This document shows, piece by piece, positions 13,601-25,600 of a stretch of 64,000 nt of DNA. Location of the stretch: assembly GCA_012295275.1 (NCBI GenBank), contig CM022665.1, forward strand, positions 34,782,001 through 34,846,000. Reading direction: 5' to 3'. The stretch comes from Chrysomallon squamiferum. Lineage: Eukaryota > Animalia > Mollusca. The notes beneath the pieces are model-generated. The model was not told the origin of the DNA, ran no database searches, and worked only from the letters and a program-made list of their open reading frames with translations. The first letter of the stretch is position 1; the number at the start of each line of letters is the position of its first letter. Made by a program: the position numbers and the translations under genes.

Positions 13601-16600
13601 ATATTTCTAGGAAAAATCTGACAACACTCCTGCTTAACATTATCATTAAATATATTATAAACAACATTTTCTCATTTATTGTGCATCATTTTTGTGTGGT
13701 ATTAAAAACACCTTAAAAAACCCACAAATGTTAATTTTTTATTTCTTCTTTTTTTTTTTTTTTGCCTTACTGAATTTTACAAAACAGATTATAGCCCAGA
13801 AAATAATTCCTCATCTAAACTAGCAAACAAAATCAGTATGATTTTATATGAAACAAAATTTAAAAATCAATAAACAAAATAATAATAATTAAAAAATAAA
13901 TCACATCTGTAACCTCTAAAAAAAAATAATAATAAATAAAAAATAATATAAAAAAAAAAAAAATTCCTAATATTAACATAAAAATAATTTCACTATACCA
14001 GATATTTCAACTCTCTACATCTAACTAAACACATTAAAATACTGGCTGTTGAGGCAAGACAGGCATGCCTGAATCTCCAATGGACACTTACCTTCTGGTA
14101 ATTAAGTAATGCCAGTGATGTTTCTGCAGCATCTTGTGTTTCTATAAACAGCAATTTGTGTTTCTGAATCTGATCTATAATACCCTGAAAATATTTAAAT
14201 AAATATACAAATTATATTACAATTTTCAGTTTTGTAACAAACTTCCCGATTTACCAAAAATAGTAAATAATATTAATAATAAAAATAGTAACAATTAATA
14301 AAGAAAGAAAGAAAAATAATATAAAAAGAAAAATGATTTGTATTTGTATCTTTTTATTTGTAAATTACTTGACTTAATTAGTCTAGGATTTTATTAATTT
14401 ATTGGATCACTTGTTTATATATTATGCATAACCGAATGCAAGTAATGCCTACATCATAAACCAGCTTTCTTCCATCATAAACACTCACACAAGTTCATCC
14501 ATGTCTACCACAAATAATTAATACTAGAATGTGGGAAGATAGTGTTTTAATAGGTGAGTGGAAATTTATTCCATTTGTTACCTTAAGTGTAAATGTATTT
14601 TGAATGGAATTATTATATTATATAAGAATTACAAGTCACTGTACACACTATAGTGCTATTTTAAAAATATACAAAACTTATTACTCGTGTTTATCATTTT
14701 ATTATTATCTTTCACTGATGCTCTGGGAAATTTTTATAGGTAATTCCATAACCAGTTTATCTTTTTCTTCTTGAATAAATCCCACTGTCTACTGTTATCA
14801 TTACTATTTGTGTCATGTATATTTTACTTGTCTCTATACATGCATGCTACCATGTGTATCAATAAAAATATAATGTACTAATAAATCACAACAAAAAATC
14901 TTTGCTAATTATTACTATCACTTGTTTGATACAACAGCTTAATGAGCTGCTTTAAAACTAGTAGATACTAGGTTCTCATCCCAGTACTGAAACCTACAGA
15001 AGACTGCAGTTTTCTAACACTGTCTACAGCAAACCCATTTTGTATAACTCCTGAATTGTGTAACTAACCCATATAGTGGATGTATACATACCATTTACAA
15101 ATTCTGTAAGTAAGTTTTGCAGCTGTATTGAATTAAGAGACAGAAAAACAAAATAATAATAATAATAATAAGTAAATGAATATATAAATAAAATAAAAAT
15201 TAGTAATAATATAATGAAAGTGAGTTATTATAAAATATCTATCACAAAAATAATTAAAAAGATTAATTTATGAAAAACAAATAAAAAAATAAAAATCTTA
15301 TTCATCAGCATTTGTGATACATGAAAAATCTGCAGCTAAACAAAACTTTTGCAGGCTCCTGCTCAATCAAGTGTGACACAAAACAAAAGCCAGATTATAA
15401 TAAATCACAGATTCTATTTTTAGACAAATTACCTCATGCTAAAGGTATTTTCCACTTGAAGGGTACTGACTTGTGACAGTGGCAGTGCAATATGCATGAT
15501 GGCAGTGTCAAGCAGAAAGCATGGACTAATGTCACTTTAACTGGAGGGTGGGGCTTACACTGACCAATCAGACAGCTCCATTTTAGTTGGCATGGTGGCA
15601 GTATATAAACAGGTGACAGGTGTTTTGTCATTTACAACAGCCCTGTCAGGTAAAAAAATTAGATGGTGTTTGATAATTATAAAAATTAATCCTATTGAGC
15701 ATACAACAGCAATGGCTGACGAAGGGGGTGATGATGTTAAATCAGCTCAGACAGAGATATGCAGACTTCCTGATTTATGCTCTAGTATGGCAGGGATGAG
15801 CTACAATCAACTAGACACAGACATCCACCATCATAAACTCAACAACCTCTGGCAGGGATTACAGAATGTCACTCCCCAGCAGGCAAACACAGCAGTAAAT
15901 GTCACTCAAGATCAAATGCCTCAGTCCATTTGTGAATACATCACTGTACCACCCCTCAAGTCGGCATGCAGAGTGTCTGATGAAAGTCAATTCCAAACCT
16001 GGTACATTTTATTTATTATTATTATTACTTTTTTTGTTTATTTATTAATTATGTATTATTATTATTATTATTATTATTATTATTATTATTATTATTATTA
16101 TTGTTTATGATTTTGTCTTCAGTTTGAAAAAAGAAGGTTTTTTTCAGGATCATTCTTCATAATTTTATAACCTGTCCCAACCTTTTGTTTCCAGTGCTTT
16201 AATATACCATCCTTGATATCAGCATGGATCATCTTTGATGAAAGCCATTTGCAAGCTTTATTTGTTTTTAAATTTTAATTTTTTAAACATTTTTTTGTTT
16301 TATTTATTTATTATTATTATTTTTTAATTAACATTAGAAAAACATTTCTCTTTACAACATTACTGCCTCTCTCATCAACTGTTTTGTTTTTAGGGACTGA
16401 GTGAAGGGAGAAGTTGCTTTTAAAAACTATTTTCCTCTACAACAACATAATCTGACCTAATTTTATTTATTTCTCTTTTTACTATCATGCAATCTATTCC
16501 ATCATACATCCAAGGGGATGAGTGAAGTGAGAAAGGTCTTTCATGAAAGATCTGTTTTCTCAATCATGCAGACTGCCCAAATTTTATATTTATCAAGACC

Positions 16601-22600: not shown

Positions 22601-25600
22601 ATATTTATACATTTTCTTTTTTTTTTAAATTCCTATTGATGATTCAAATTTTTGGTTCAATATTTATCTTTATTTTTCTTGTAACATTTCCTTATTTCCC
22701 TTTTTCCTGTATGATGCAGTCATTGATTGCCCCTTTTTATTTTTATTTTAAAAATATATTTCAAACAATGTGTGTCATTTGCAAAAACAATTAGCTCTGA
22801 TAAATTTCACTTCGTATTTCTATTTCATTCTTAGTTTTCTACAATAAGCATGACTGTTGATTTGACTGTATATTAAATAACTTGACCTAACAAAAACAAT
22901 TTTTCAATTTTCTTTTGTTGGCTTTTTGAAGTCTTTAGAAGCTAATTTTATTGTCTTTTTTTGTAATTGTTTGATGTGCTACAACCTCAGTTGTATTTGA
23001 AAAAATTTATTATTTTATGTATATTTGATGTTTAGTTGGGGGGGAAAAAAAATGATATGTTTGTTAATGAATAGTCCAGCAGAAAACACACACATAGAGA
23101 CACAACACAATGTGTTGAACATTGCTGGAGCTATTTTTTACCAGTTGTATATATAAACATCATTTGTTGAAATTTATAGTGCAATATGTCCATTTTCACA
23201 TTTTCCATTTCCATTATCTCATTTATATTGTTGGTTTCTTTGTTCAGATCTTGTGCGCTCCATTTTGTACAATATTTCTTTTTGTTTGTTTGGTTGGTTC
23301 GTTTGACAAACATGTTTTGGTTTTCACAATAATGTGATACATGTAACAGTGCAGAACCAAGCTATATAAAAATATGTATTTGTATAACCACATTCCATTT
23401 GTACAAAAGATGCATCAAGACATCATCATCATCATCGTCTCAATGAACTCATATATTATACATTAACCCTTTTAGTGCCATAATCAATACAACTTCATAT
23501 TGTCCAAAAAAACAACTTAAAAAATTAAACATTACAGTGTTGTAACTTATATAATATTTACATTTATTTTAAGTTTTTATTTCAAGAAAAAAAATTTAAA
23601 AATACATACATACATTTTCTTATACTGTTTTAACCAGTCACCAGTATCCAGTATCTTGTCACATTGGTATTATGTTTTGTCTTTTTCTTTTCTTTTTTCT
23701 GTTATGTCTTGTATGTCAATTTTAACTTATCATGTACTTTATTTTATTATCAATTATTTAAGCATTTTTTTTTAGTAAACAACAAATTGTTTTTTCCTTC
23801 TATATGTATAGCAATATTTCTTATTTCTTCTTTGCCATACTGGTGGCACTAAAAGGGTTAAATTGGCTCATTTCTTAATTCATTAGTGCTGGATATTAAA
23901 TCTGTGATCAATATATTTCTTCTTGTTTTTATTTCAGTTTTAATTTTTCTCTCAATACTATATAACAGTAACAACAGCATCTCAGAGATTATTTAACTTG
24001 ATACAGAGACAAAAAAAAAGAGAGAAAAAATACATGAAAAAATTATAAATAATAATACATTTTTTAGTAATATTGCCCATATCATTTTCTTCCCTTTATA
24101 TTTGGATTTAGCATATCTTAAAACCTTGAAATTTAATACATAAATATTTGATAAAATTTCAGCATTACGCTTCTTACCTGTTCATACCATGAAGCAACAA
24201 TTGTTTCCTATATAAAAAAAAAAATAATAATAATAACTTTTAATTAAAAATAAGTTATTCCTCATAAAACAGTGTAAATCATGTGCTTTTTTTTAAAATT
24301 ATTAAAACTATCTAATATCAGTCCAACATTTTTTTTTTTTATCCTAAACAAAATTGGCGAAAAAGAGAAGACTGAAATACAAAATTTATCATATTTGTGG
24401 TTTCCATCATACACAAGCATTCATTGATTTAGAACAATAAATAAATAAGACATCTCTTTACCATGTATATATAGCTGGTGAAGAAACAAGCTATCCCATC
24501 AGGCACCACTGCTGACATGTCAACTAAAAGGTTTCCATAGTTTCGTATAACAGCTGAAATAAAAAAGAACAAACACTTATATGCTTTGCTTACAAAATGT
24601 CATTTCATATACAATGAAATAATAAAAAAATATGTCAAACTGTTACTCCAGGTTAAATGAAAATGCATAGCTTTTTCTGAAAAATAAGCAACAAATTAAT
24701 TATAAAGGTGAAAAAGACAATGATTTTGCATTACATACCAACATCTTCTCTGGTTTCAAATTTAGAACTCATGGCTACTTGATCATTTCCTTTGCTCACA
24801 ATCTGAAAATATCCAAACATTTATTTATGATGATGGAGACATATACAACCAACCAGTTGGGGCTTCATGCTGTTTTTTCTTTTGGTGAAACAGTTGAATT
24901 TTGCTAGATACTGTTTAATCTTTTGGTGACTCGAAGTATATTATTGCTTAAAATATATAGTACCTATATGAATAATACAACAAAAAAAACACATTATGAA
25001 CAGTTTTGTCACAATTTGAAAAAAATTAATTAAAATAAAATAAATAAATAAATTATAATATTTAAATTTACCATCGGACAAAGACATGTTCTTGCTAGTG
25101 TCATGGTAAAGGATGCCATGGTAACAGGTCTAAAATCTAGAATTTTAGGATACATGTCCAGTGGTGAAAGTGTCTGAAAAGTAATGAATGAATAGTTTAG
25201 TTTTAGCAAAATTTGAACAGTTTTGTAATGAAGCATATATGGAAAAAGAGGGAGAGTTCTTTAAATATTCATAAAGTTTTTTTTTTTTTGTTTTTTTTTT
25301 AAATTTTTTATCTGCTTGAAAATTAATTTAAAAAAATTAGTTTTGAATAATAAAAAAAAAATACAGTATAAAACTTTCATTATTGTTTTTAACCAAAGAA
25401 TGCTTTCTTTTTTTGATATCATATAAGAAAGAAAAAATACCATTTTTAAATTTCAAAACACTCCCACACACTCAAACACATACACAAAAACAATCGTATG
25501 CATTCATAGATATGTTCACAGAGCTAAACCAATTTCAATAACAAATTCCAATGATGAATGAAATTTGAAAATGATAATTTAAACTCACTCCTGATGTAAT

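What the first reader, a model, noticed from the sequence alone, without database searches (positions are those of the whole stretch)
14185..24177. Lineage-specific SPILE-like TALE homeobox gene nested antisense inside a conserved intron of the essential TFIIH helicase XPD
Seen: all other XPD introns are under 1 kb, but intron 19 is ~10 kb. It contains an intact, spliced ~485-aa TALE gene on the opposite strand with its own promoter. Known: the PYP loop defines TALE homeodomains. Ala50 with WFANKR and no PBC/MEINOX/IRO-box does not fit Pbx (G50), Meis/Pknox/TGIF (I50) or Irx/Mkx (WFANAR). It fits the fast-evolving spiralian-specific TALE (SPILE) genes implicated in blastomere fate during spiral cleavage. 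The intron position (c.1665) matches, from memory, human ERCC2 intron 17, so the intron is old and the passenger arrived later. Inference: a developmental transcription factor has settled in a constitutively transcribed housekeeping locus, perhaps exploiting open chromatin in oocytes or early embryos, with possible transcriptional interference with XPD.
Basis: partly seen in the sequence, partly recalled or inferred. Interest (0 to 1): 0.8.

Follow-up and report, generated by a model that had tools for sequence, protein, structure and literature searches.

The report
Ancient embryo gene inside DNA-repair gene
An intact, transcribed homeobox gene (SPILE-E, likely an early-embryo regulator) lies backwards inside an intron of this snail's DNA-repair gene XPD, and the same two genes are neighbours in other snails and in bivalves, so the arrangement is likely very old rather than a recent oddity of one lineage.

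Summary
XPD (25 exons, 760 aa, minus strand) has a 9,993-bp intron after c.1665; its other 23 introns are 185-887 bp. Inside lies a four-exon, 485-aa TALE gene on the plus strand; its exon 1-2 splice appears in RNA contigs of two studies. The gene is the orthologue of SPILE-E (TALE-III), a known single-copy gene, maternally expressed in limpet and mussel. The label 'lineage-specific' is wrong: in 13 of 13 gastropod and bivalve species where both proteins were seen, they share a contig, in 8 with consecutive accessions, and seven gastropod XPD models break exactly at this intron. Nesting is thus probably ancestral in gastropods; for bivalves only adjacency is shown. Most likely the gene was inserted early and is trapped, since moving it would cut XPD; regulatory coupling is the main rival. 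New details: a real 386-bp, 99%-identical copy of the gene's 3' end sits upstream of its promoter, and the promoter is conserved in a related species and carries seven TGACA sites. My searches found no report of the linkage. A new member of a known kind (old nested gene pair), useful as a synteny anchor for SPILE evolution.

The parts
10655..33200 (-). XPD/ERCC2 gene, 25 coding exons, 760 aa (host gene)
   Evidence: 92% identity, no gaps, to Gigantopelta XPD P0098
24178..24207 (-). XPD exon 19 (30 nt), ends at c.1665
14185..24177 (-). XPD intron 19, 9,993 bp, GT-AG, phase 0; same position as human ERCC2 intron 17
   Evidence: PMC7955621 passages
14092..14184 (-). XPD exon 20 (c.1666-1758); spliced to exon 21 in RNA contigs
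   Evidence: joint 13481-14091 in X8, X9
14430..14815 (+). Upstream copy of the 386-bp repeat: last 30 codons, stop and 3' UTR of SPILE-E, with AATAAA; 4 mismatches to the genic copy
   Evidence: own 386-nt contig at about twice flanking depth in 3 of 3 DNA runs
15361..15660 (+). Proximal promoter region with 7 TGACA/TGTCA sites (15374, 15474, 15506, 15530, 15614, 15626, 15644)
   Evidence: densest 300-bp window of the 64 kb, 0 of 2000 dinucleotide shuffles reach 7; window chosen after seeing it
15469..15619 (+). Promoter block (GC/CACCC box 15546, CCAAT 15564, TATA 15602) conserved in a second organism
   Evidence: organism B contig, 17 other letters and 5 gaps in 151 nt, depth like single-copy XPD exon
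15712..16001 (+). SPILE-E exon 1 (ATG at 15712)
   Evidence: N-terminus aligns with Patella orthologues; RNA joint to exon 2
17508..17766 (+). SPILE-E exon 2, holds the conserved CxTP(D/E) motif
   Evidence: RNA joint
18197..18349 (+). SPILE-E exon 3, holds the conserved DS(G/D)YxS motif
   Evidence: homology only
18807..19562 (+). SPILE-E exon 4 (coding part, to stop)
19209..19397 (+). 63-aa TALE homeodomain (A50, N51, K52, R53, N54, R55)
19398..19538 (+). Conserved C-terminal segment, predicted extension of helix 3 plus one further helix; shared with SPILE-D-like proteins
   Evidence: alignments; AlphaFold model (block pLDDT 64-84 over most of it)
19471..19856 (+). Genic copy of the 386-bp repeat (end of coding region and 3' UTR; AATAAA at 19815)

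Best explanation
An intact, transcribed SPILE-E (TALE-III) homeobox gene lies on the opposite strand inside intron 19 of XPD, where it was likely inserted before gastropods and bivalves split and is likely kept mainly because it is trapped (a rearrangement that moved it would cut the essential host gene), while it likely acts, like its limpet and mussel orthologues, as a maternally supplied transcription factor of early cleavage. Shown: the two gene models, the exon 1-2 splice, orthology, shared contigs and consecutive accessions in other molluscs, XPD models broken at this intron. Inferred: nesting (not mere adjacency) in other species, the date, entrapment as the cause, maternal function. 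It has its own TATA/CCAAT promoter, so it need not borrow XPD's; the TGACA cluster would let TALE-class factors regulate it (inferred from a recalled binding motif). The 386-bp upstream copy is most simply a recent local templated insertion or the stump of a tandem duplication that was mostly deleted.
For: Orthology: FastTree on 259 homeodomains puts the window gene in a 52-sequence clade (support 0.976) with P0286 and P0189, whose homeodomains read identical to Pv_TALE-III and Pf_III in the supplement of PMC6118893 (compared by eye); TALE-III = NfSPILE-E. E clade is single copy and maternal/ubiquitous to the 16-cell stage in mussel and limpet (PMC8524836); oyster TALE1-4 are expressed egg to blastula (PMC5322547). 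Same intron: 7 of 14 named partial mollusc XPD models break at residue 555|556; Bradybaena has C-half tag 10566 next to TALE 10567, Batillaria has TALE 3178 next to N-half 3179, and only a nested position fits both orders. Own promoter conserved in organism B about as well as an XPD exon. Gene body at single depth in 3 of 3 DNA runs.
Against: No coordinates of another species were read: accessions show adjacency, not nesting, and the bivalve evidence comes from two pteriomorph families. Bivalve-like locus L002 has no XPD exon within 1.2 kb upstream or 8.8 kb downstream of its SPILE-E ORF. Five of the seven split models were fetched as one 90% cluster, so 7 of 14 is a selected count, and a long intron alone can split a model. 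Babylonia accessions are 715 apart. Entrapment is not absolute: copy-and-lose can free a nested gene. If both genes are active in oocytes, interference should disfavour the nesting (PMC5174743 abstract), which hints at something more than entrapment. No embryo expression data for this species.
Confidence: 0.6

Rival explanations
1. Same anatomy and age, but the pair is held by regulation: enhancers in XPD introns drive SPILE-E (a genomic regulatory block), or both genes share an oocyte-active domain, XPD being needed for rapid cleavage divisions.
For: Linkage across gastropods and bivalves while other SPILE clades duplicate and scatter (PMC8524836); many old gene pairs rest on such constraints (PMC3514665 abstract); fly Xpd is needed for early embryonic mitoses (PMC2837399 abstract).
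Against: Nesting alone predicts long retention.
Confidence: 0.22
2. The two genes were ancestrally neighbours, and true nesting arose only in gastropods (or bivalves lost it).
For: All split-model evidence is from gastropods; no bivalve model in my set breaks at 555|556; L002 shows no flanking XPD exon.
Against: Moving a neighbour into an intron needs an extra event; RefSeq models are RNA-guided and would not split; bivalve introns may exceed the 8.8 kb seen.
Confidence: 0.13
3. One reading: a young, lineage-specific, fast-evolving TALE gene recently settled in this intron; the direct repeat would be a trace of the insertion.
For: The 386-bp repeat flanks the gene and is 99% identical.
Against: The gene has one-to-one orthologues beside XPD in both classes; the repeat is the gene's own 3' end, not a target duplication or LTR; the promoter is shared with organism B.
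Confidence: 0.03
4. Assembly artefact: a repeat-mediated misjoin placed the gene in the intron or collapsed a tandem array.
For: A near-identical 386-bp repeat flanks the gene; no listed contig spans the whole stretch, with breaks at simple repeats.
Against: Repeat contig at about 2x and gene body at 1x in 3 of 3 DNA runs of three studies, with contigs overlapping both ends of the repeat; same linkage in 13 other species.
Confidence: 0.02

Closest known systems
SPILE-E / TALE clade III (NfSPILE-E, CgTALE3, MvSPILE-2, LgTALEHD28)
   Same: Single homeodomain with the RHN(E/Q)PL start, conserved C-terminal helices and N-terminal motifs; same clade in the tree; apparently single copy. PMC8524836 lists one E-clade gene each for the two vent snails it surveyed, so this gene or its nearest orthologue is probably already catalogued.
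   Different: Its place in an XPD intron is not mentioned in the main texts of PMC8524836 or PMC6118893. Here the coding region has three introns, whereas L002 is one 492-codon ORF and several ENA genomic ORFs look full length; L001 has one intron near, not at, intron 3.
Nested protein-coding genes (about 10% of Drosophila genes, PMC3814207 listing; typically short young duplicates in long introns, PMC5174743 abstract)
   Same: Whole gene inside one intron, opposite strand, own promoter.
   Different: Appears very old, and host and passenger may both be active in eggs, where interference is expected.
Deeply conserved nested pairs such as TIMP in synapsin or VAChT in ChAT (recalled, no call)
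   Same: One intron position kept over hundreds of millions of years.
   Different: Passenger is a spiralian-restricted developmental transcription factor and the host a TFIIH core gene.
Genomic regulatory blocks (developmental regulator plus bystander gene; PMC3514665)
   Same: Old linkage of a developmental transcription factor to an unrelated housekeeping gene.
   Different: The whole regulator, not only its enhancers, lies in the bystander's intron; enhancer sharing is not shown.

Membership tests
TALE homeobox class | 63-aa homeodomain with three extra residues and PYP between helices 1 and 2 | tested here: met
   Pfam Homeobox_KN 60.3 bits vs cutoff 24; ungapped alignment to PBX1 across the loop; three helices predicted at pLDDT >90
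SPILE-E / TALE-III | Homeodomain groups with published TALE-III sequences | tested here: met
   52-sequence clade, FastTree support 0.976, with P0286 and P0189, identical by eye to Pv_TALE-III and Pf_III. Midpoint root, no curated Pbx/Meis/Irx outgroup in the tree.
SPILE-E / TALE-III | One homeodomain (B clade has two) | tested here: met
   One stretch in Pfam and PDB searches; none in exons 1-3
SPILE-E / TALE-III | No PADRE domain | tested here: inconclusive
   No PADRE profile was available. Indirect: D-like ORFs L003-L005 align only from aa 353 on, and the N-terminal part aligns with E-clade motifs.
SPILE-E / TALE-III | Single copy per genome | tested here: inconclusive
   Gene-body contigs at single depth in 3 of 3 DNA runs exclude a near-identical second copy; no whole genome was held for a full search.
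SPILE-E / TALE-III | Maternal, ubiquitous expression in early cleavage | not testable with these tools
   No embryo RNA among the 11 runs listed; low-depth spliced contigs in 2 of 3 RNA-like runs laid (X7, X8; not listed for X9)
Pbx / Meis / Pknox (canonical TALE) | PBC or MEIS N-terminal domain; G50 (Pbx) | tested here: not met
   No such Pfam domain in any exon or in 8 orthologues; A50 where PBX1 has G
Irx / Mkx / TGIF | WFANAR or I50 helix 3, IRO box (recalled) | tested here: not met
   Helix 3 reads [12 protein letters not shown] chains score far lower than PBX1; IRO box judged from Pfam silence only
Nested gene | Entire gene within one intron of another coding gene, both transcribed | tested here: met
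Genomic regulatory block | Linkage conserved across distant lineages | tested here: met
   13 of 13 species with both proteins share a contig (with 12, 18, 26)
Genomic regulatory block | Enhancers of the regulator inside the bystander's introns | not testable with these tools
   Only the proximal promoter was seen conserved
Transposon-borne homeodomain | Transposase domain, terminal inverted repeats or LTRs, multicopy | tested here: not met
   Pfam finds only the homeodomain; self-comparison finds no flanking inverted repeat; single depth

The most novel reading that the evidence does not exclude
SPILE-E is the anchored member of the spiralian TALE expansion: it entered the XPD intron before the molluscan radiation (perhaps before molluscs and brachiopods split, as Lingula has TALE-III), is co-activated with XPD in oocytes through shared regulation, and its intronic address is why it stays single copy while other SPILE clades multiply; the 386-bp stump is a duplication caught being purged, and the TGACA cluster is a TALE feedback input.
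Probability: 0.15. Interest if true: 0.75.

Novelty: new member of a known kind. Interest (0 to 1): 0.5.

Why it matters
SPILE genes are tied to cell-fate specification in spiral cleavage, but their orthology rests on weakly supported homeodomain trees (TALE III: 10% in PMC5322547; E-clade calls under 50% bootstrap in the PMC8524836 tables). A fixed address in a universal single-copy gene gives an independent marker: one intron can be read in any spiralian genome to date the gene, find it where annotation missed it, and see how it was lost. It also explains a recurring annotation error (XPD split at residue 555|556 in gastropods), and offers an old host-passenger pair, possibly both active in eggs, on which to test transcriptional interference. 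The direct repeats make the gene a candidate deletion or duplication hotspot in this species.

Tried and rejected
No whole genome was held, so no genome-wide paralogue search. Reads were laid only on 13300-20300, so the exon-19 side of the intron is not directly checked; an X1 contig of 5,480 nt runs 5,007 nt beyond 20300 and would reach XPD exon 19 if colinear. Metagenome scan: 9 loci, 2 SPILE-E (L001, L002); tblastn with 5 XPD proteins found no XPD exon in 9 of 9 loci, and a 10-mer scan of 3 loci gave only chance-level hits. Organism B contigs (562-827 nt) were too short to link XPD and SPILE-E. TGACA enrichment is not seen in L002 (5 sites in 700 nt upstream against 4.0 per kb in that locus), so the cluster is not shown to be conserved beyond the close relative. 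Retrogene origin considered: single-ORF E genes exist, but D- and B-like loci L003-L007 are single ORFs too and L001 has an intron, so it is not specific evidence. The upstream repeat has no poly(A) tail, which speaks against a retrocopy. ESM Atlas with P0286 gave only generic homeodomain clusters under 0.9. Lottia XPD lies on an 841,684-bp scaffold and LgTALEHD28 on scaffold_128; I could not show they are the same. Scan findings: nothing. Literature searches and in-paper searches found no mention of the linkage; Morino et al. 2017 is not held, most subscription papers are not searched, and the FASTA supplements of PMC8524836 could not be read. No fold search or complex prediction was run.
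Full report
1. The observation. A search with one XPD exon gave full-length relatives; tblastn and a splice-site search built a 25-exon, 760-aa XPD on the minus strand, 92% identical without gaps to Gigantopelta aegis XPD, so the organism is a closely related gastropod. 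Intron 19 (24177..14185, 9,993 bp) follows c.1665; the other 23 introns measure 185-887 bp. Human ERCC2 has intron 17 at the same place (variant c.1666-1G>A, PMC7955621, passages read). On the plus strand of the intron lie four exons (15712-16001, 17508-17766, 18197-18349, 18807-19562) that give 485 aa with GT-AG introns and a TALE homeodomain at aa 369-431.

2. Both genes are transcribed. RNA run X7 and run X8, of two studies, each hold a low-depth contig joining exon 1 to exon 2 as modelled. X8 and X9, filed as 'DNA?' but spliced, hold 3,172- and 3,190-nt contigs that join XPD exons 20 and 21, stop matching at the exon-20 edge and carry 1,733 and 1,696 further letters, against 1,662 needed for exons 1-19. 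Contigs show neither strand nor level; the plus-strand sense follows from GT-AG. Joints 2-3 and 3-4 rest on conserved motifs in the alignment with orthologues.

3. Identity. HMMER over 1.84 billion representatives and a length-restricted search (48 hits among 145 candidates) returned a tight group of mollusc proteins that share the homeodomain and a helical C-terminal segment. A FastTree tree of 259 homeodomains places the window gene in a 52-member clade, support 0.976 (midpoint root, no curated outgroup). Two members read identical to Pv_TALE-III and Pf_III in the supplement of PMC6118893 (passages), and TALE-III is NfSPILE-E. PMC8524836 (parts 1-3 of 6 read, supplement tables searched) describes the E clade as single copy, without PADRE domain, maternal and in all blastomeres to the 16-cell stage in mussel, as in limpet. 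PMC5322547 (section 12) reports oyster TALE1-4 from egg to blastula. Morino et al. 2017 was seen only through these citing papers.

4. The linkage is old. Accessions are consecutive in Physella (XP_059168668-670), Batillaria (BaRGS_00003178/79), Bradybaena (BsWGS_10566/67), Pecten (XP_033735565/566), Mizuhopecten (XP_021378489/490), Argopecten (XP_069117701/702), Mytilus trossulus (two loci) and M. edulis; 3-22 apart in three more; same scaffold only in Aplysia (755 kb) and Babylonia (58 Mb, 715 apart). Patella, Dreissena, Elysia and Pinctada (SPILE-E only) and Haliotis, Lottia, oysters, chiton and cephalopods (XPD only) could not be tested. The species are not independent: four scallops, four mussels, five gastropods of two subclasses. 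The gastropod-bivalve split is Cambrian (recalled).

5. Same intron in gastropods. Of 14 named partial mollusc XPD models, 7 break at residue 555|556: C-halves in Littorina, Bulinus, Nucella, Bradybaena and two Biomphalaria-type entries, and an N-half in Batillaria that ends at 555 and reads into the intron. Five came as one cluster, so the count is selected. Bradybaena has the C-half beside SPILE-E and Batillaria the N-half beside it; a position inside the intron fits both and the window. For bivalves nesting is open: locus L002 shows a single-ORF SPILE-E with no XPD exon in 1.2 kb upstream and 8.8 kb downstream.

6. Promoter. GC box, CCAAT and TATA lie 166-110 nt before the ATG. A second organism keeps 15469-15619 with 17 substitutions and 5 gaps, similar to an XPD exon (11 of 81), at single-copy depth; CCAAT is unchanged. 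Seven TGACA/TGTCA sites fall in 15361-15660, the densest such window in 64 kb (expected 0.96; Poisson 6e-5; about 0.013 after allowing for windows; top 5-mer of the region; 0 of 2000 shuffles). The window was chosen after seeing the sites. Two of the four sites inside the conserved block show no listed change; the other two lie too near its ends to judge. TGACA(G) as the Meis/Pknox/TGIF site is recalled. No enrichment in L002.

7. The repeat. 14430-14815 repeats 19471-19856 (last 30 codons plus 3' UTR; 4 mismatches; spacing 5,041). In 3 of 3 DNA runs from three studies (one may be the source sample) it forms its own 386-nt contig at 25.1, 163.8 and 107.9 depth against 9.6-13.1, 76-95 and 48-65 for neighbours: a real duplication around a single-copy gene, not a collapsed array. 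The junctions show 1-3 nt of microhomology and no poly(A). A templated insertion and a mostly deleted tandem duplicate give the same result; I cannot tell them apart. Recombination between the copies would delete or duplicate the gene (established mechanism, inferred here).

8. How it most likely works. SPILE-E is transcribed from its own promoter against XPD, most likely in oocytes, and binds DNA through a TALE homeodomain to act in early blastomeres (by orthology; its targets are unknown). XPD polymerases read through 10 kb and splice the passenger out. The pair persists because a break between them destroys XPD (0.6). Regulatory coupling (0.22) is plausible given PMC3514665 (abstract and passages) and the embryonic mitotic role of fly Xpd (PMC2837399, abstract), but no shared enhancer was seen. 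Gastropod-only nesting 0.13, recent arrival 0.03, artefact 0.02.

9. Novelty. The gene is a known orthologue; nested genes are common (PMC3814207, search listing; PMC5174743, abstract). The XPD linkage was not found in searches or in-paper searches, which cover open-licence papers only. Verdict: new member of a known kind, interest 0.5, mainly as a synteny anchor for SPILE history.

Noticed in passing
window 28442..27905: XPD intron 10 (c.815) has a GC donor (GCATGT); all other donors are GT.
   Followed up: no
window 30033, 27794, 24461: XPD has introns at c.531, c.925 and c.1635, making 54-, 24- and 30-nt exons; by recall human ERCC2 lacks these and has one at c.1307 that is absent here.
   Followed up: partly
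window 33760-35133 (+) and downstream: A gene starts head-to-head 560 bp from the XPD start codon; its 457-aa first ORF has no Pfam or PDB hit; it looks like a peroxisomal AAA ATPase N-terminus by recall only.
   Followed up: partly
window about 51400-59300 (-): Multi-exon gene with several Kunitz protease-inhibitor domains (Pfam 70.2 bits at 52556-53050).
   Followed up: no
window 48235-48597 (-): 120-aa ORF in a GC-richer patch resembling a Mutator-type transposase tail by recall; no Pfam hit.
   Followed up: no
window 17785-17918: 34-bp tandem repeat, 3.9 copies, in SPILE-E intron 2.
   Followed up: no
L001:268-445: A bivalve-like SPILE-E has a phase-0 intron about five codons from the window's intron 3, while L002 has none: intron gain or loss is frequent in this gene.
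   Followed up: partly
L003-L005, L006-L007: SPILE-D-like single ORFs share the C-terminal helical segment with SPILE-E; L006 and L007 are two-homeodomain SPILE-B-like single ORFs.
   Followed up: no
L008:2085-2731, L009:1304-1820: SPILE-like homeodomains split by an apparent intron at the start of helix 3.
   Followed up: no
P0071, P0077: Oyster XPD models are fused to PF10237/PF06839 domains (1,184-1,203 aa), either a model error or a close neighbour.
   Followed up: no
P0291/P0433 and P0439/P0436: Mytilus trossulus has two XPD + SPILE-E pairs, on a 4.5-Mb and a 94-Mb record, perhaps haplotypes; PMC8524836 lists two 99%-identical E loci in Crassostrea virginica.
   Followed up: no
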